A stretch of 64,000 nucleotides of DNA from Pachysolen tannophilus NRRL Y-2460 (lineage: Eukaryota): NCBI GenBank assembly GCA_001661245.1, contig KV454012.1, positions 1,600,418 to 1,664,417 on the forward strand, in the 5' to 3' direction. The translations under genes and the position numbers were made by a program. The notes below the pieces were generated by a model. The model made no database searches. It was not told the DNA's origin and saw only the letters and a list, made by a program, of their open reading frames with translations. The stretch's first letter is position 1; the number at the start of each line of letters is the position of its first letter. This document shows positions 13,271-56,345 of the stretch, one piece after another.

Positions 13271-15387
13271 TCATACATCGAAATTACTGCTAGTTGCAGC
13301 TTCATCAAAGCAATAACTTTTGTCATCGTAGATGATTTCTTCTTCCAAATCTCTTCTGCTGTTATTATCATGCTCATCATGATTAGTTGATCTAACTGAC
13401 TTAACTGAAACTTCGTCCTCATTTATACTATTATTTCTCATATATTGAGAATCTGGAGAGATAACACTATTAGTGGGGGTCTCAGAATGACGAGGGTTGG
13501 ATTTTTCTGAATTTGATCTTTTCAATTTCAGATTATTTAATATCATTTGTTTTGTCTTGTATAAATAAACATCACGATTTTTATTTTTAATGTTGTTTTT
13601 CAGATTTATATTATTATTAATAATATTATTGTTATTATTATTGTTGATATTTATATTTGCCTTTTTGTTATTAATATTTTTAAAAAATTTTGTAAAGCTA
13701 TTTTTTTTATGATTATCCATTTTTATATTGTTTACCATATTTACATTTGTTAATGTACTATGACCATTACTTTGATTATTTGAGTCTATATTATAGTTGT
13801 ACAATGAATCATTTGTAGATGATACAGTTCCCGGTGCTCCATAGTCAATTAAAAAATCAATCAATGCAACCACTTTATGTGATACATTATTATAGACTGA
13901 ATAAAGATAATCAGAACTACCTTCAGTTTTTGAAAATTTAAAATTTTCATTTTTAAAACTTTGAATAGTATTATTATCAGAATTTTTTTTCCTTAATTCT
14001 AAATTTTTAATAAGACTTGAACTATAATTATTATGATGATTATTTTTTAAATCCATTGATTCCACATAAATATTTAAATCATCAACATCATTTTCATCTT
14101 CAATTTTATCATGACTTGTAATTATAAAATCATATTTACCTTTTTTAAAAAATTTTTAATTTTTAAATTATTTTTTTTATCTTGATCTTGTATTTTTGGT
14201 AAATAATTTCCAAAACTATCAAAATAATCTGTAGCTTCATCAATATAAAAAGGTCTTCCTAATATACCCTTTTTTTGATCATTTTTCTCTAATAAAGCAA
14301 TTCTATTGATATATTCCCAAGAAACAACATTTGATACAACATAACAAGTGATATTAAATACTTCAGAAACTTGACTTATGAAAAAAACTGCGACATCTGC
14401 AAAAAAAAATAAAATTGAAGCATTTATTGCAGCAAATGTAATTAATGTGAAAACTAATATTTTTGAATTACTAAAAATGAAATTTTTTTTGCTAAAGATG
14501 AAAACAAACATTAATGAAGAAAATAAAACTGACATTGAAATTCTTAATAAATAAACGAAAACAGGTATTATTGTTATTGTTGAATCTTCATCTGAATTAT
14601 AATTGACCAAATGTCTTGTAGCAATATAGGTTGCCATCAACAGTTGTGATGATACTGCTAAAAAGACACCTATAACTAAAACAATTCTTTTTTCCTTTTG
14701 TCTTGAAAAAGTTCTCATTATAATTTGAACTTGAGCGAATTGTAATAATATTGTAACTACTAAATCAACAGAATTAAAAGCAGGACTTCCTTGTATTGCA
14801 TCTGTTACAATCATTCCACTTGATATTCCCTTTTCATATTGTTCATAAAATTTTACAATTGAAAAAATATAAGTTGAACTAAGATATAATAATGCTAAAA
14901 ATGATGAAATTTTAATCAATCTAGTTGGTTTTTGTGAATAAAGATATTGTTTTGTTAAAATTATTAAAGTTAAAAATAATGTAACAACAAAACAAGAACT
15001 TAAAGAATATATGATTGGATATATACAATATATCGAATCAAAATCATGATCAACATAATAATCCCATCCTTTATCTAAATAAGGTAATTTTGTAATATTA
15101 TATTGTTCAAATAAAGTATTAGTTGTTGATAATAATAACATATTTCTATAACAAAAACTTTGAAATGTTGATTCACTACCAATCTCAGTAATAACTCTAG
15201 GATTCTCTGATATAATAAACCCATCTTTTAAATTAATTAATTCACAAGCTTTATATACATCTTCTATAGAAGATGGATATTTCCATACTTCAGCTTTTGA
15301 AATCCCAGCTCCAGCTCCAGCTCCAACCATTCCTGTACTACTAACCTCTCCACTTCGTTTTAAAAGTCGTATCACTTCACCAAGCAT
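13271..15387 (-). CDS. RIM21: PalH/Rim21-family multi-pass membrane pH sensor, frameshift near 14141-14157
   Basis: Multiple hydrophobic helices with LQFAQVQIIMRTFSRQKEK and WEYINRI..KGILGR. The downstream Asn-rich ORF becomes the cytosolic tail after a -1 shift. Confidence 0.75.
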
Positions 15388-15903
15388 ACTCTGAATCAAT
15401 ATTTCTAAATCAAAAAAAAAAACCAACTATGATTACTAACCAAAATATATTCTAATCAGAAAAAAAAAAACAACTAACTTTTATTAAAACTTCTTCTTTT
15501 TTCTTGTTCTTCTTGTTCTATTGATTACATTATAACATTCATTTCTCTTCCTCTTCTTACGGCTAAGCACAATTTTTATATTTAAAAACAAAAAAAAAAA
15601 AAAAAAAAATCAGAAACAAAAAGTCGTTCCGAGAAAATCAAAAGATCAAAAAGTCGTTTCTATAAAATCAAAAAAATTGTGAAAAACGTAGTTTCTTAAA
15701 AATCAAAAAATTACAAAAAAATTTTTTTTTTTCCCGAAAAAAAAATGGAAATTTAGAAAGATGAAAGAAAACTATGATGAAAAGTATGAAAAGTATGGAA
15801 ATATGATGAAAAGTATGGATACCTTTTTATATTTAATATTTTAATTTTTTTTATTTTTTTTCTGATTTTTTTAATTGATTGAATTTAAATTCTGAAGTGA
15901 GAG

Positions 15904-17019
15904 ATGCCACCAAAGAAGAAGGTTGAAGAGAAGAAAATTTTGTTGGGCCGTCCGGGCAACAATTTGAAATCAGGTATTGTTGGTCTTGCCAATGTTGGTA
16001 AGTCTACATTTTTCCAAGCAATTACAAGGTGTCCTCTTGGTAATCCTGCAAATTATCCATTTGCAACGATTGATCCTGAAGAAGCTAGGGTTACTGTTCC
16101 TTCTGAGCGGTTGGATGAGTTGTTTGAGTTGTATAAGTCTCTGAAGAAGATTCCTGCTTATATTACGATTTATGATATTGCTGGATTAACTAGAGGTGCA
16201 TCTGCAGGTGAAGGTTTGGGTAATGCTTTTCTTTCTCATATTCGTGCTGTTGATGCTATGTTTCAAGTTGTTAGGTGTTTTGATGATGCGGATATCATTC
16301 ATATTGAAGGTGATGTTAATCCTGTTAGAGATTTAGAAATTATTAGTAATGAATTAAGATTAAAAGATATTGAATTTGCTGAAAAACATTTAGAAGGTGT
16401 TTTAAAAATTACTAAAAGAGGTGGACAATCTTTAGAAGTTAAACAAAAAAAGGAAGAAGCTCTGTTAGTTGAAAGAATCATAGAGATGTTAAAAGATGGT
16501 AAAAGAGTAGCAAATCAAGATTGGTCACCAAAAGAAGTTGAAGTTATTAATACTATGTTTTTATTAACAGCAAAACCTGTTATTTATTTAATCAATTTAT
16601 CAGAAAAAGATTATATAAGAAAGAAAAATAAACATTTATTGGCAATTAAAGAATGGGTTGATAAATTTTCTCCAGGTGATGTTATAATTCCATTTTCTGT
16701 TACTTTAGAAGAAAGATTATCTCATATGGAAACTGATGAAGAAAGAGCTGAAGAAGAAAAAAGAGTTGGCGCAACATCTGCTTTACCTAAAATCATTCTT
16801 ACAATGAGGAAAAAATTGGATTTGATCTCTTTCTTTACTTGTGGTCCTCAAGAAGCAAGAGAATGGACCATAAGAGATGGAACTAAAGCACCTCAAGCAG
16901 CAGGTGTTATTCATAATGACTTGATGAACACATTCATTCTCGCTCAGGTCATCAAATATCAAGACATTATCGAACACAAAGATGAAGCTTCTGTTAAGGC
17001 CGCTGGTAAATTGTTACAA
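15904..17019 (+). CDS. OLA1: Obg-like ATPase Ola1/YchF, main part (broken at the inversion breakpoint)
   Basis: GIVGLANVGKST, ANYPFATID, DIAGL and TGS domain. The natural sequence stops at ..AGKLLQ. Confidence 0.95.
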
Positions 17020-17701
17020 GCAGGATCACATGTAATGAAAATAGGTTGAATTTGAATATTATATTTTGAATTTAATCCATTTAAAATTAAACCTAATTTA
17101 TCTAATTCATCAGGACAAATATCAGGACAATGTGTAAATCCAAAATATAAAATTGAAAATTTTCCTTTAAGATTTTCTTGAGTAAATTGATTACCATTAA
17201 CATCAATTAAATCAAATGGACCACCAATAAGTGGTTTCCCCATACCTCTATTCAGTTCTGCAGTTTTCTGTAATTCTAATCTTTTCTTCTCATGCCTGAA
17301 TAATAAAGTAAAACCAGTACCAAATACAACAAATATTAATAAAGCTTTCCATGTTTTAAATTCAATATTTGAACTACCTCCACCAACTAATTCAGATCCT
17401 GTTTGTAAATTGGATCCACCAATCAGAACTCTAGATAAAGTCTTTTTCTTGGCAGCTGGGGTATCTTTCCTCTTCAGAATTTCATCTTCTAAATGAGAAC
17501 GAATACCTTTATTTTCTTCATCATTTTGTTTATTATTATTATTATTATTATTAACTTCTTGATTAAGTCTTTTAAAAGATGATGAACATATAAATTTTTT
17601 TGATTTTGAATTAATTTCATTTGAAATTGAAAATTTTTCAAATAAACCCTATCTACTAATCCAAACCTCGTAAACATATTCATTCTAGCCATAAATACCA
17701 T
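17020..17701 (-). CDS. SCO1: Sco1/Sco2 copper chaperone, N-terminal part (inverted; frameshift at the A7 run 17595-17601)
   Basis: Presequence, TM segment (TWKALLIFVVFGTG), GKPLIGGPF, YFGFTHCPDICPDEL (CxxxC), ending at FITCDPA. Confidence 0.92.
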
Positions 17702-18048
17702 TCTTTATTAAATTTCTTTAAATATTAGCAATTAAAATAGAATATATATATATATATATATAAAATAAAAAAACAATTCTATATATTATTTCCTATTTTT
17801 CTTACTGAAAAATTTGTATAATGACAAAAATCGGTAAAAAAATCATACACTACAATTACAATTCACAATTACAACTATACGACTACAATTGAGTACAAGA
17901 AATGATTAGACATCTCTATATGTTTGATTGGATATATAAGAAAACATTGAATTAAAATCAAATGATTAAAAACAATTAGATATAGATAGAAAAAGGTTTG
18001 GTAAAAAAAAAAAAAAAAAAAAAACAAGAATTTTTTCTTTTTATATTA

Positions 18049-18117
18049 TTAGTTTTTACCTGCACCTGCTCTAAAGTATATGATATCACCATCTTCAACA
18101 ACATAATCTCTACCTTT
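18049..18117 (-). CDS. OLA1: Displaced C-terminal 22 aa of Ola1
   Basis: Reverse strand reads KGRDYVVEDGDIIYFRAGAGKN*, the conserved Ola1 C-terminus. Confidence 0.92.
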   Translation of the reverse strand, partial: KGRDYVVEDGDIIYFRAGAGKN

Positions 18118-18454
18118 AAGAGATTCACCTGAAGTATTAAAAGAATACCTTTCTGAATTTCATCCACAAATCATTGGTTTAACTGGAACATATAATAATA
18201 TAAAACAAATTTGTAAAAATTTTAGAGTTTATTTTTCAACACCTTCAAATATAAAACCTGGTCAAGATTATTTAGTTGATCATTCAATTTTTTTCTACTT
18301 GATGGATCCAGAAGGTGAATTTATAGATGTTTTAGGTAGACAATATGAAGCCCCAGAAGCAATTGAGAAAATTAAAGATCATATAAATGCTTTTGTTCCA
18401 AGGGAAACAAGGGAAAGACAAAAAAATAGTTGGTATGGATTCTTGTTCAAATAA
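18118..18454 (+). CDS. SCO1: Sco1/Sco2 C-terminal part
   Basis: RDSPEVLKEYLSEFHPQIIGLTG...DYLVDHSIFFYLMDPEG...WYGFLFK*. It has no ATG of its own at the start. Confidence 0.92.
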
Positions 18455-18799
18455 TAAAATAAAAAAAAAAAAAAAAAATTTTTTTTTTCCTGTATATATT
18501 TATACTTACAAGCTTTACAATTAAAACAAGTATATATACTATATATATATATATATATATACGCATATACAACAAACCATATAAATTTTGTAGATCTCAT
18601 ATCCAATCATTATGAAAAGTACAAAACTTAAAGTCAACTATAACTAAATTAAGAAAGTCACGGTTATGTGTCACTTTCCTCTAATCCAAAAAAGAAAAGT
18701 CTCTATGTTCTCTATGTGTTAAAACATTTTTTCAGTTTAAAAGTTTAGCTAGCTAGTTAATTTAATCTCTAGTCGTATTATTATTTATAAAAGTTTCAC

Positions 18800-19013: not shown

Positions 19014-22000
19014 ATGGTAAGTATGATTTAATGCGATGAGTTTTCTTTTGATGATGATCTTATTATTATTTATTGATCTTATCGGCGGTTATTATTAAAA
19101 AGATTAATTTACTAATTGTTTTTTAAAAAAAAAAAATTTTAAAATTTTTTTCTAATTTATTTTTTTAATTTATTAAAGGTTCTCTTTAAGCGGAAACCAA
19201 TCGAGTTTGCTCCAACTCCAGATAATCCAGTGGATTTAAATACAGAGGTATGGTATATTCCAGAAACAAGAGAATGGTTTACTGAATATGATGATTATTT
19301 AGGAAGATTGGATTATTATAATACAAGAAAATTTGTTTGTGAAATTACAGGTATAACAGGGTATACATTTTGGGAAGCTTTAGAAATTGAAAAAAAAGAA
19401 ATTGATAAAATTTTAAAATTTTTCCCTGAAGCATGTAAAGAACCAATATTAAGATATGTTCAATTTTCTACAATACCGAGAATTGATCAATTAATAGATG
19501 ATATTTATATGAGGTTTAAAAATGAATTTTTCCCAGGAGATGTTGTTAATGTTAAATTAAATGGTGGTCAAACAAGAGAAAAAGGTATTGTTAGAGAAAA
19601 GGCAAGATTTAATGCTATAACTTTACCAAATGGAACTACAAGACCACCATATTGTCAATATAGAGTTTTACTTTCATCAACAGATAGAGAAATTACAAGT
19701 AATGAAGCTGATTTATCAAGAGATCGAAATTTATTTACTAAATTATATATAAGAGGTTTTATAAAATTAACTGTAACAAGATCAAATAAAATTGGAGCTC
19801 CATGGGTTGTAAAAGATGAATATACTAAAAAATATAGAATTCCAACTGAATTTCCTCCTCATTTACTGATGTTTAAAGAAGATGAAAATTCAAATACATC
19901 TTCTATGAAAAGGAAAAGATCAAGAAAAAATAATTTAAATACAACAAATAATAATAATAATAATCTGCAACCAATTTTCCCATCATCAAATAATAAAAAT
20001 AATAGTAAAAATAATAATAATAATGGTCATACAAATAAAAATAATAATTCTAATAATCAAAAAGAAAATAGAAAGAAAAGAAAAACTGAAGAAATTCCAG
20101 GAATATTTGAAAATTTAAAAGAAACACCTCCTCCAAATGGTGAAGGTAAAGAAAATCCTTTGATGAAATGGAGAGAAGAATGGTTGAAAAGATTAAATGG
20201 ACTAGTTGTTTACATAGATGAAAGTAATCCGAAGACAGTTGATAATGATATGAAAGAAAAAGTAATTCAATTATTTGAATCAGTTAATTGTAAATTTGTT
20301 ACAAAATTCGAACCAGATACAGTTAATTTTATTATAACAAAGAGAACTTATAGTTCAAAAGTTAATTATAAACCAGATGATATTTTTTATAATTTGGATG
20401 AAACTAATAGAAAAGTTTGGCATTATGAAAAAGTTTTAAGATTTTTTAAAAGTTTAGCAATTACAGTAAGAAAAATTCAATTAAAACAAAAAGAATTAGA
20501 AAGAGAACAATGGAAACTGAAATTAGAAGAATTTAAAAAACAACACGCTGCCAATGAAATGATGGGATTTCCTATTGATCAATTTAATGGTAGATTCAGA
20601 CCAATTTTACCTGCAGATCAAGGTGGTTTCCCATTAAATGATCAAAGATATATAAATAATGGGTTATTACCATTATATCCAAAAACAGCAACACCACAAC
20701 AAATTAAAGAATTACAAAAAAGTTTTTTCTCTGGTGGAGCTTTTCCAGCAGATGCAGATTTTAACTATAATAAATTACTTCTGGAATCAAGATCATCATC
20801 TATTCCTCCAACTTCTGCGATAATTTCTTCCCAATTCCCTATGACTAAAGCTGCATTGGTTGACGATTTATCCTTACCTTTCCAATTAACTTCCATGAGG
20901 CCGGGTTTCAAGAAACTAGAAATTCCAGAAATAACAAGAATATCGGAATTATTAGAAAGTTGGTGTTTTTTAAATATGTTTAGAAATGCTTTGACAATAG
21001 ATACTTTCACATTAGATGATTTTATAACTGCTATTAGTTGGAAGAAATCTGATTTAGAATGCCAGTTATTACAAGAAGTTTTTTGTTCTTGTTTGAAATG
21101 TGTATTGGATGATGATGTCAAAGTTGGTGGTAATAACACTCATGGAATAAGTAAAGATGAAAATGCTATTGGTGATGGTGAGCAATATTTAATTTTAATT
21201 CCTCCGAAAGATGGTTATCTTGATCCAATTCTGGATTTGGAAGAAGAAAAGAAGGAAGAATTGAAGCAAGATCAAACTGAAAATGAAGAACCAGTTAAAA
21301 ATGAAGAATCGGCAACACCAGTGGCAAAATCTCAAGAACCGGATACAGAAGGAGAAAAATCGCATGATGAAGGTAAATCCAACGGAAAAAATGAAGAAAA
21401 TGGAACAGAAAATGGAACCATAAACAACAAAGATCAGGATGTGAAGGAAGAAGAAAAAGAAGAAGAAAAAGAAGAAGAAGCAGAAGTAGAAGAAGCAGAA
21501 GAAGATGAAGAAGAAGATGAAGAAGATAATGGCAGTGTTGAAGAAAGTGAGGATTCAGAAATTGACCACAATGCATATAAATTGTTGAATTTCAGAAAAA
21601 TATCATGGCAAGAGAGATTACGTAAAAGAACTTTCAAAGATGGTCAATGGTTAATAATCTTAATAGGTGTATTGTCCTTAGTTGAACATGTTCCAAGATA
21701 TACATCAGATATTCAAGAAATTTTTGAAATTTTAGCACCTTTGGATATGCCAGCTACACCTACTGTCGTTACTCAGCAGTTTTTCTTAGCTTTACCTACT
21801 GATTTGAAGATTAGAGCAATTAATATTTTGTGTGAATTATTAATTAGTGGAATCGTTATTAGAAATCATATTGATAAGTGTGCTGAAGATTCTGCCCAAC
21901 TAAGGAGAGAAAGATTAGAATGCCTTAGAGAATATAAATCACTTATTGAAGAAGCGGGAAACATCAATAAACAATGTCGTGAAGCCATGATAAATAACAA

Positions 22001-31028: not shown

Positions 31029-31074
<46 letters not shown>

Positions 31075-31492
31075 NNNNNNNNNNNNNNNNNNNNNNNNNN
31101 NNNNNNNNNNNNNNNNNNNNNNNNNNNNNNNNNNNNNNNNNNNNNNNNNNNNNNNNNNNNNNNNNNNNNNNNNNNNNNNNNNNNNNNNNNNNNNNNNNNN
31201 NNNNNNNNNNNNNNNNNNNNNNNNNNNNNNNNNNNNNNNNNNNNNNNNNNNNNNNNNNNNNNNNNNNNNNNNNNNNNNNNNNNNNNNNNNNNNNNNNNNN
31301 NNNNNNNNNNNNNNNNNNNNNNNNNNNNNNNNNNNNNNNNNNNNNNNNNNNNNNNNNNNNNNNNNNNNNNNNNNNNNNNNNNNNNNNNNNNNNNNNNNNN
31401 NNNNNNNNNNNNNNNNNNNNNNNNNNNNNNNNNNNNNNNNNNNNNNNNNNNNNNNNNNNNNNNNNNNNNNNNNNNNNNNNNNNNNNNNNNNN
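31075..31492. other. Assembly gap (418 N) flanked by long (TA)n microsatellites
   Basis: N run, with (AT)n at about 31031-31071 and 31494-31529. Confidence 0.99.
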
Positions 31493-31536
<44 letters not shown>

Positions 31537-54015: not shown

Positions 54016-54363
54016 ATCGAAACTACTTCTCCTCCAAAATTAAAAATAAAAAAAGCAAAATATTCAACTACTCAACTACTCAACTATTCAATATCAAGCT
54101 ACTTCACACACTAGCAACTACCACCCAGAATCAAATACCTATTAAACCCAATTTTAATACAATCTTTTCATCTTGTCGGTTGAAATATTTTTTTTTTGGT
54201 GAAGTTTTTCGATAAAACTTTTTGCTCGAATTTTCACGACTGTTTTTTTTTTCTCTCATCTTGTTTGCTGAGAAGTTGTAATTGTATGAAAACATCTTTA
54301 TCAAGAACTTCAAGGTTTCTTTAGATTTGTAAATATATATATATATATATATATGACGTTTTG

Positions 54364-56345
54364 ATGTTAAGGGGGAAAATGCCGGTTGATAAAGAAGTTG
54401 TATTAGTAGACTCAACAGATTCTGGGAAGAATGGGAATGGGCATTATCGCCCGAATAAGATATCGAAGATAAACTCGTCACAAGATATTTATAACCAGTC
54501 ATCTTCAAATTCCACTCCATTTAATTCTCATGGGACAACTCCATTACCGTTTAATGGGGATGGTGGTGGTGGTGGTGGTGGTCGCATTGGTTCTAGTGCT
54601 GCGGTGAATAGGCTTTTAAGCGCTGAGGGATTACCTTTGCCATCTTCTGTTTCTTCTTCATCAGAGTCAGAGGTAGAATCTGAATCTGAATCTGGTGAAT
54701 TGGGTTCAGGTTCTGGTTTTTCAGAGAAAGGTGTACGAAGTGAGAATAGCAGAGGAAGGAGTGTTTCTTCTTCTGCAGAAAATAGAAATCACGATGAGGA
54801 TGGAGGTGAAAGCGATTCTAAGAGTGGAAGTGGGAGTGTGAGTGGGAGTGGAAGCGAGAGTCTGCTTAGCAATAGCGATGAAGATAGTGAGTTGGAAGAG
54901 CTACATTTTGATCAGGAAGATTCAAATTTAAGTGATAGCAAGAGCAAGGATGATGATGACAATAATAATAATAATAATAATAATGAAATTACAGGTGATT
55001 TTGTTTCAAAAGAGACTACTTCATTGGCTAGAAGCTATTTAAAAGCTAATGGGTCAATGAAATTTTTGGATCGTTATTTACCTGGAACTGCATCAGCTGA
55101 AGATATTTTAAATTTGATTCAGCTTTTAGGTTATAAGCCTAAAGAATTACCTCGGTCTTTATTATTTAATGAAAAAAAATTAAAAAAAATAATGAAAGAA
55201 GTGACGAGGATAAAGAAGAAGAAGATGAAGATTTTAACCAAGTGGATAACGAAAATGCTTTGATGTATTTGATCAAATTTTTACAAAAAGCAATGAATAA
55301 AGTATTGACCATGAGAGTAAGATTACCAGATTTTGATACAATTGAAGCGTTAGTAGATAGTATAAATAATGCATCAAATATTGTGGTTTTAACTGGAGCA
55401 GGTATTTCAACATCTTTAGGGATACCAGATTTTAGATCTTCAAAAGGTTTTTATGCAAAGTTATCCTATCTTGGGTTGGAAGATCCACAGGAAGTATTTG
55501 ACTTGTCTTATTTTAGAGAAGACCCAGCAATATTTTATTCAATAGCACATATGATCTTACCACCAGAACATGCATTTACACCATTACATGGTTTTATTAG
55601 ATTATTACAAGATAAGGGGAAATTATTAAGAAATTATACTCAAAATATAGATAATTTAGAAAGTAATGTTGGAATTGATGCAGATAAATTGATTCAATGT
55701 CATGGATCTTTTGCCACTGCAACATGTATTACTTGTGGGTTTAAAGTTCCAGGTGAAACAATTTTTAAAGAAATTAGAGCTCAAGAAGTACCTATATGTC
55801 CCTGGTGTAAGACTAAAAGATTTAAATTGTTAAAAGAAATTGAACTTGAAGAAGATCTTAATGGCTCTGCAAGTGCATGGAAAACAATGTTTTCTAAATC
55901 GTTTGGTGTAATGAAACCAGATATAACTTTTTTCGGTGAAGCATTACCTGAAAGATTTCATACAAGTATAAAGAAAGATATTTCAGAATGTGATTTATTA
56001 ATATGTATAGGGACATCTTTAAAAGTTGCTCCAGTATCTGAAATAGTGAACATGATCCCAGAAGAAGTGCCTCAAGTCTTAATCAATAAAGATTTGGTTG
56101 GTCATTGTGAATTCGATTTAAGTTTATTAGGCTATTGTGATCAAGTAATTGTCTATCTCTCTGAAAAATTAGGCTGGAAAATAAATCATAAAGATTTTGA
56201 AAAAATTGCTAAAAGCGATCTAAAATGCACTCTGGTTGAAGAAAAAGTTGGAATTTATGAAATCACAAGTTCAAATTACAACGAAGAAGAATTAAATGAG
56301 AAATCAGATATAATTGGAGAAATAGAAGAAAAAGAAGAAGAATAA
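54364..56345 (+). CDS. SIR2: NAD-dependent histone deacetylase Sir2/Hst1, frameshift near 55172-55189
   Basis: [36 protein letters not shown]. The upstream ORF holds the Sir2 N-terminal motif [19 protein letters not shown]. Confidence 0.92.

What the first reader, a model, noticed from the sequence alone, without database searches (positions are those of the whole stretch)
17020..18117. Precise 1098-bp inversion that breaks both OLA1 and SCO1
Seen: OLA1 (+) stops matching at ..AGKLLQ (CAA ends 17019), and its C-terminus KGRDYVVEDGDIIYFRAGAGKN* lies on the minus strand at 18117-18049. SCO1 runs on the minus strand from 17701 to ..TCDP-GC at 17020, then continues on the plus strand from 18118 (A-AGA-GAT-TCA, giving A-R-D-S-P). 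Reverse-complementing exactly 17020-18117 restores both junctions in frame with no base gained or lost, leaving OLA1 and SCO1 in tandem. There is no inverted repeat, microhomology or target duplication at either breakpoint. Inference: both halves look undecayed, and Sco1 is needed for cytochrome oxidase assembly, so this is a misassembly or edited sequence, or a very recent or reversible event. If real, it would inactivate two genes at once and make chimeric tails (Ola1-AGSHVMKIG; Sco1-CNNLPAALTEA...).
Basis: partly seen in the sequence, partly recalled or inferred. Interest (0 to 1): 0.8.

Follow-up and report, generated by a model that had tools for sequence, protein, structure and literature searches.

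The report
Probable assembly flip breaking two genes
A 1.1-kb piece of a yeast draft genome is reversed and cuts two housekeeping genes in half; this is most likely an error in the genome assembly rather than something the yeast does.

Summary
The inversion is in the sequence as described. Flipping 17020-18117 rejoins OLA1 (394 aa) and the SCO1 catalytic domain with no base gained or lost and no microhomology. It is also in the public annotation: a 381-aa chimeric Ola1 and a 136-aa Sco1 fragment named Pachysolen tannophilus. SCO1 has a separate one-base frameshift near its start, so the flip alone does not repair it. The restored tandem order is also not the convergent order seen in other yeasts. 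The biology argues against a real fixed event: this is the only SCO gene found, COX11 and COX15 are intact, no alternative oxidase was found, all four pieces are undecayed, and the strain grows well on glycerol. The assembly is an error-prone draft: 25 of 30 gaps lie at long homopolymers, and there are frameshift candidates at A-runs. No inverted repeat supports a switch. Best reading: an in-silico flip during assembly or finishing (about 0.8). A real subclonal inversion is about 0.12 and a programmed switch about 0.03. No reads were laid on the junctions, so this is not proven.

The parts
15904..17019 (+). OLA1 (Obg-like ATPase, YchF family), codons 1-372
   Evidence: Pfam PF01926 and PF06071; 84-89% identical to five intact relatives
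17020..17049 (+). As-deposited read-through tail of Ola1: 9 residues from antisense SCO1, then a stop
   Evidence: the same 381-aa protein is public record P0001
17020..18117 (.). The reversed 1098-bp block; blunt ends, no microhomology, no N and no homopolymer over 4 nt within 60 nt of either end
17020..17701 (-). SCO1 5' part: presequence, hydrophobic (probably transmembrane) stretch, CxxxC motif; matches residues 1-88 of PDB 2b7j chain A
17622..17650 (-). Separate one-base frameshift between the SCO1 ATG and the gene body, in a stretch of short G, T and A runs; a 50-nt intron right after the ATG is a weaker alternative
   Evidence: the cause is inferred
17702..18048 (.). 347-bp spacer between the SCO1 start and the OLA1 stop, with an (AT)n tract at 17742-17762 and a 22-nt A run at 18003-18024
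18049..18117 (-). OLA1 last 22 codons and stop
   Evidence: 22 of 22 identical to the two nearest relatives P0002 and P0004; Pfam PF06071 positions 67-83
18118..18454 (+). SCO1 3' part (111 codons and stop), with the conserved His; matches residues 90-200 of PDB 2b7j chain A
18540..18561 (.). Second (AT)n tract; it shares a 9-nt flank word with the tract at 17742, and the two are candidate ends of an older or assembly-made flip of the whole SCO1 gene
   Evidence: weak, since 249 of 38920 background flank pairs share such a word

Best explanation
The reversed block is an artefact of the draft assembly G000, and the cell carries intact OLA1 and SCO1. Shown: the block is an exact reverse complement of unique sequence, joined bluntly inside two conserved genes. 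Inferred: an interval was reverse-complemented in silico during scaffolding, gap filling or misassembly correction, which gains or loses no base and needs no homology. The likeliest sub-case (about 0.6) is that this 1098-bp piece alone was put in backwards and the true order is tandem OLA1 then SCO1, the product of an old gene-sparing inversion. The other sub-case (about 0.2) is the first rival below. Which program or step did it is not shown.
For: (1) The two halves are the only SCO matches in G000; COX11 and COX15 each match as one open frame. (2) The strain name on P0121 is NRRL Y-2460, equal to CBS 4044 by a reference title; CBS 4044 grows on glycerol as sole carbon source at about 0.26 per hour (PMC5779717, passages); Sco1 is needed for Cox2 metalation in S. 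cerevisiae (PMC7700678, passages). (3) No decay: all four pieces are as close to intact relatives as those are to each other, including 22 of 22 for the orphaned Ola1 end. (4) The assembly is error-prone: 25 of 30 gaps lie by homopolymers of 12 nt or more, 4 frameshift candidates in 864 kb each overlap an A-run, one of them in the next gene, and SCO1 itself has another. (5) Zero microhomology, no repeat and no unusual fold at the ends (z -0.03 and -1.50).
Against: No reads were laid on the junctions. An overlap assembler does not normally invent two reciprocal, N-free junctions without reads that show them (general knowledge). The breakpoints are unlike this assembly's usual contig ends (longest run 4 nt). 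No second gene-breaking flip was found in 864 kb, 6.9% of the genome, so this is not a frequent systematic bug. No intact same-species Ola1 or Sco1 turned up in three protein searches or two metagenome scans. The alternative-oxidase search was blank but its control was silent too.
Confidence: 0.8

Rival explanations
1. Sub-case of the artefact (counted inside the 0.8): the true order is convergent, as in other yeasts. The roughly 1.17-kb SCO1 block between two (AT)n tracts was first assembled backwards. A later paired-end-guided correction then flipped an interval of similar size whose ends were displaced by about one insert length, cutting both genes. Both steps are inferred.
For: All 4 of the 15 metagenome loci that hold both genes are convergent (two are near-identical), and W/C gene names in two Eremothecium/Ashbya species put the genes on opposite strands. 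In the tandem state the tracts lie at 17376-17395 and 18540-18561, about 355-365 and 420-445 bp to the right of the two breakpoints. The tracts share a 9-nt flank word.
Against: The convergent loci are Saccharomyces-like or on a long branch; none is from this species' own clade. (AT)n tracts are common (140 in 864 kb) and the shared word has a background of 0.64% per flank pair, about 2.5% per tract pair, noticed after the fact. Only 5 of 30 gaps lie at (AT)n tracts against 10% of AT-rich windows. It needs two errors.
Confidence: 0.2
2. A real inversion carried by part of the sequenced culture (a subclone or one homologue): two blunt double-strand breaks rejoined in reverse by end joining, with the assembler choosing the broken form. 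Cells with the intact form explain respiration.
For: Two exact reciprocal junctions without N are what a real molecule would give. Breakpoints are not at homopolymers. The equal 0.92 word share in five runs does not exclude both forms being present.
Against: It needs two simultaneous breaks with no end loss, and a Sco1-null lineage common enough to win the consensus. No site feature was found at either end.
Confidence: 0.12
3. A real inversion fixed in the clone that was sequenced, making it a double null for OLA1 and SCO1.
For: The public annotation holds only the broken forms. A second YchF-family gene on C1 (52% identical) might cover for Ola1.
Against: No second SCO gene; growth on glycerol. 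Runs of two studies hold the same 0.92 share of words; junction words private to one sample should lower the other by about 0.02 (chance of 2 or fewer such words about 0.04).
Confidence: 0.05
4. A programmed, reversible switch that turns OLA1 and SCO1 (and so respiration) off together by a homology-free, blunt, site-specific inversion.
For: Undecayed halves and exact reciprocity. The species does invert its MAT region on nitrogen depletion (PMC6692504, passages).
Against: No inverted repeat, shared core or symmetry at the ends, against 2-kb repeats at MAT. The junction codons show no gap or insertion relative to about 120 homologues each, so there is no sign of an evolved site. No recombinase was looked for genome-wide.
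Confidence: 0.03

Closest known systems
Local inversion misassembly in draft genomes
   Same: Unique sequence reversed in place, genes broken without decay, in an assembly with homopolymer gaps and frameshift candidates.
   Different: Typical cases end at repeats or N gaps (general knowledge); these ends have neither, which points to a coordinate-based flip rather than a repeat mis-join.
FF1 flip/flop mating-type switch of Pachysolen tannophilus and Ogataea polymorpha
   Same: Inversion of a chromosome segment in the same species.
   Different: FF1 inverts 8 kb between 2-kb inverted repeats and holds MAT genes; here 1.1 kb, no repeats, and both ends cut coding sequence.
Small gene-order inversions of budding yeasts
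   Same: Kilobase scale; would explain tandem versus convergent OLA1-SCO1 (PMC2258174, passages).
   Different: The gene-order model in that paper assumes inversions cutting within genes are not tolerated; this one cuts two conserved genes.
Blunt end-joining inversion between two double-strand breaks (as after paired nuclease cuts; recalled)
   Same: Exact reciprocal junctions without homology.
   Different: No cause for two breaks is evident, and the product should lose cytochrome oxidase.

Membership tests
FF1 flip/flop invertible locus | Long inverted repeat flanking the invertible segment | tested here: not met
   definition from PMC6692504 passages
FF1 flip/flop invertible locus | MAT genes inside the segment | tested here: not met
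   the segment holds only parts of SCO1 and OLA1 and a spacer
FF1 flip/flop invertible locus | Both orientations occur in cells | not tested
   no reads were laid on the junctions
Site-specific recombinase inverton | Shared core or inverted recombination sites at both ends | tested here: not met
   1 of 1050 breakpoint pairs gives the flipped string, so no shared base at the ends
Site-specific recombinase inverton | Recombinase gene nearby | tested here: inconclusive
   the flanking ORFs scanned are RIM21-like and ITC1-like; 7 frames were scanned, not the whole window or genome
Assembly artefact | Junctions absent from raw reads | not tested
   five runs hold the stretch but none was laid
Assembly artefact | Broken genes show no decay and no backup copy | tested here: met
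   Ola1 has a 52%-identical paralogue, Sco1 has none
Assembly artefact | Ends at repeats, homopolymers or gaps, as in ordinary mis-joins | tested here: not met
Assembly artefact | Phenotype at odds with the deposited genotype | tested here: met
   growth on glycerol of CBS 4044, from literature passages; whether the sequenced clone itself respires is unknown
Sco1/SenC | CxxxC motif, conserved His and thioredoxin-like domain | tested here: met
   split across the two pieces: 2b7j_A 1-88 and 90-200
Ola1/YchF | G domain plus C-terminal PF06071 domain | tested here: met
   the last 22 residues lie on the other strand

The most novel reading that the evidence does not exclude
Both orientations exist in living cells: a blunt, homology-free 1.1-kb inversion recurs at these exact bases and switches off Sco1 (cytochrome oxidase assembly) and Ola1 together, a respiratory phase variation in a xylose-fermenting yeast by an unknown recombination route.
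Probability: 0.03. Interest if true: 0.9.

Novelty: not a real feature. Interest (0 to 1): 0.14.

Why it matters
If it is an artefact, the value is curatorial: public databases hold a chimeric Ola1 and a Sco1 fragment for a reference yeast of the CUG-Ala code, so presence/absence studies would wrongly score SCO1 as lost. It is also a clean example of a draft-assembly flip with no repeat or gap to warn of it. If it is real and subclonal, it would be a rare captured blunt inversion. If it is real and reversible, it would be a new kind of eukaryotic switch controlling respiration.

Tried and rejected
No reads were laid on the junctions, so the direct test is open. No RNA holder listed. Using the absolute word share (0.92, 21-23 of 273 words missing) to tell artefact from real: inconclusive, the answer changes with the assumed set of homopolymer errors. 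Looking for an intact same-species copy: none among the best 120 rows listed in each, none in the one-member clusters of P0001 and P0121, none by exact DNA pattern (0 matches) or by protein (15 loci, best 78%) in metagenomes; those tools may leave out records near the window's genome, so this is no evidence either way. An edit made only in this scan's copy: rejected, the chimeric protein is a public record. A systematic flip bug: 517 coding segments in 864 kb gave 2 tail-to-tail hits (this one and a His-Gln repeat false positive) and 2 weak head-to-head hits that I did not inspect; the detector needs pieces of 70 codons and missed this inversion's right junction. Hairpins at the breakpoints: not above shuffles. 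(AT)n tracts as usual contig ends: 5 of 30, little above background. Alternative oxidase: no match, silent control; that this species lacks cyanide-insensitive respiration is recalled, and I read none of the 6 papers listed for it. Literature: 0 papers for SCO1+OLA1+synteny and for Pachysolen tannophilus+Sco1; none of the 14 listings for Pachysolen+inversion names this locus in title or abstract start. The genome papers were not held and the proteomics supplements could not be seen; they may hold peptides that decide the matter.

Full report
Observation. The window is G000:C2:1600418-1664417 of a 12.6-Mb, 197-contig genome, and the region is single-copy there in the same orientation. OLA1 starts at 15904(+) and as deposited ends after 381 aa. 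Reverse-complementing 17020-18117 gives 394 aa, the usual length of its relatives, and opens the SCO frame from 17648 to the natural stop at 18454. The rejoined junctions align without a gap in 119 of 120 Ola1 and 119 of 119 Sco homologues that span them; the commonest Sco junction context (48 of 119) is the flipped reading itself. Only 1 of 1050 breakpoint pairs yields that string, so there is no microhomology. The repeats shown are AT-rich and none marks both ends. The two SCO pieces match residues 1-88 and 90-200 of yeast Sco1 in PDB 2b7j: the CxxxC motif is on one piece and the conserved His on the other, so neither could work alone (inference from the family).

Two corrections. First, the SCO1 ATGs at 17701 and 17692 are out of frame with the gene body; 0 of 3900 breakpoint pairs restored both genes from their ATGs. 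One base is missing somewhere in 17622-17650, a stretch of short runs; a 50-nt intron is possible but I see no branch-point consensus by eye. Second, the flip leaves the genes in tandem, whereas all 4 of 15 metagenome loci that hold both genes have them convergent. Two of those are near-identical Saccharomyces-like loci and two form a long branch; none is from this species' clade. A gene-sparing flip of SCO1, old or artefactual, is therefore also needed to reach the order seen there.

Identity. The best Sco hit, P0121, is named Pachysolen tannophilus NRRL Y-2460, and it and the 381-aa chimeric Ola1 (P0001; NCBI, UniRef, nr) sit on a contig of 2,193,613 bp, the length of G000:C2. P0001 reads CTG as Ala. 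So the break is in the public deposit and its annotation.

Is it biology? The two halves are the only SCO matches in G000. COX11 and COX15 each match as one open frame. No alternative oxidase was found, though the control was silent. In S. cerevisiae Sco1 is needed to metalate Cox2 (PMC7700678, passages). CBS 4044, the same strain by a reference title, grows on glycerol alone at about 0.26 per hour (PMC5779717, passages). All four pieces are undecayed: 84-89%, 86-100%, 68-80% and 70-78% identical to five or six intact relatives, against 83-94%, 86-100%, 66-82% and 69-82% among those relatives. Together these make a fixed real event unlikely.

Is it the assembly? In 864 kb (800 kb fetched, plus the window) 25 of 30 gaps lie by homopolymers of 12 nt or more and 4 same-strand frameshift candidates each overlap an A-run, one in the RIM21-like gene next door (judged by eye, not checked against homologues). 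That is a pyrosequencing-like error profile (inference). Against a routine mis-join, the breakpoints have no N and no run over 4 nt, and no second gene-breaking flip was found with a detector that needs 70-codon pieces. Ends that look random, lose no base and share no homology fit a reverse-complement operation on coordinates, or blunt end joining in a cell. Both ends fall in genes by chance 46% of the time, so the double hit needs no design.

Mechanism. I commit to an in-silico flip (0.8). In the simpler form (0.6) this piece alone was placed backwards and the true order is tandem. In the bolder form (0.2) the true order is convergent: the roughly 1.17-kb SCO1 block between the (AT)n tracts was mis-oriented, and a correction flipped a similar-sized interval displaced by 355-445 bp. 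Support for that is the matching size, the order in other yeasts and a 9-nt shared flank word (background about 2.5% per tract pair, noticed after the fact); (AT)n tracts are common and seldom end contigs here. Real alternatives are a subclonal or heterozygous inversion (0.12), a fixed mutation in the sequenced clone (0.05) and a programmed switch (0.03). The species' known switch inverts 8 kb between 2-kb repeats at MAT (PMC6692504, passages); none of its tested features is met here.

Papers seen: passages only for PMC4937558 and its preprint 10.1101/037226, PMC13232491, PMC6692504, PMC5779717, PMC4986446, PMC2258174 and PMC7700678; search listings for the rest. Searches for this locus in print gave 0 papers or none that names it in the listing. 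Supplements of the proteomics paper could not be seen and may bear on the verdict.

Verdict. A well-spotted and real feature of the deposited sequence, most likely not of the organism. Interest 0.14. The read-level test is cheap and still open.

Noticed in passing
window 13271-15426 (-): RIM21/PalH-like gene (PF08733) seems split by a frameshift at a T6/A6 run near 14130; the 294-aa downstream frame has no Pfam match and no check against homologues was made.
   Followed up: partly
window 17622-17650 (-): One-base frameshift in the SCO1 presequence; the public model P0121 (136 aa) skips this part and stops before the CxxxC motif.
   Followed up: partly
window about 19015-19180 (+): The ITC1-like gene (WAC, DDT, WHIM1, WSD domains) seems to start with ATG followed by an intron (GTAAGT donor, TACTAAT branch-like site); it also has a weak DBF4-type BRCT match below cut-off.
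   Followed up: no
G000:C1:530342-531514 (+): A second YchF/Ola1-family gene, 52% identical to P0002.
   Followed up: no
G000:C2:1489052-1491432, C2:1726117-1727858, C1:1011909-1014499: Three more probable homopolymer frameshifts in long genes.
   Followed up: partly
G000:C2:1544401-1545386 and C3:688256-689225: Two weak head-to-head detector hits, both near assembly gaps; not inspected.
   Followed up: no
window 31031-31529: The window's only N gap (418 nt) is flanked on both sides by (AT)n tracts of 41 and 36 nt.
   Followed up: partly
window 54325-56345 (+): Two same-strand frames overlap by about 90 nt (54325-55263 and 55173-56345); possibly another frameshift or an intron.
   Followed up: no
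L014, L015, L017: Three related yeast OLA1 loci have no SCO gene in the DNA fetched (L017 is only 4.8 kb), so the OLA1-SCO1 adjacency is not universal.
   Followed up: no
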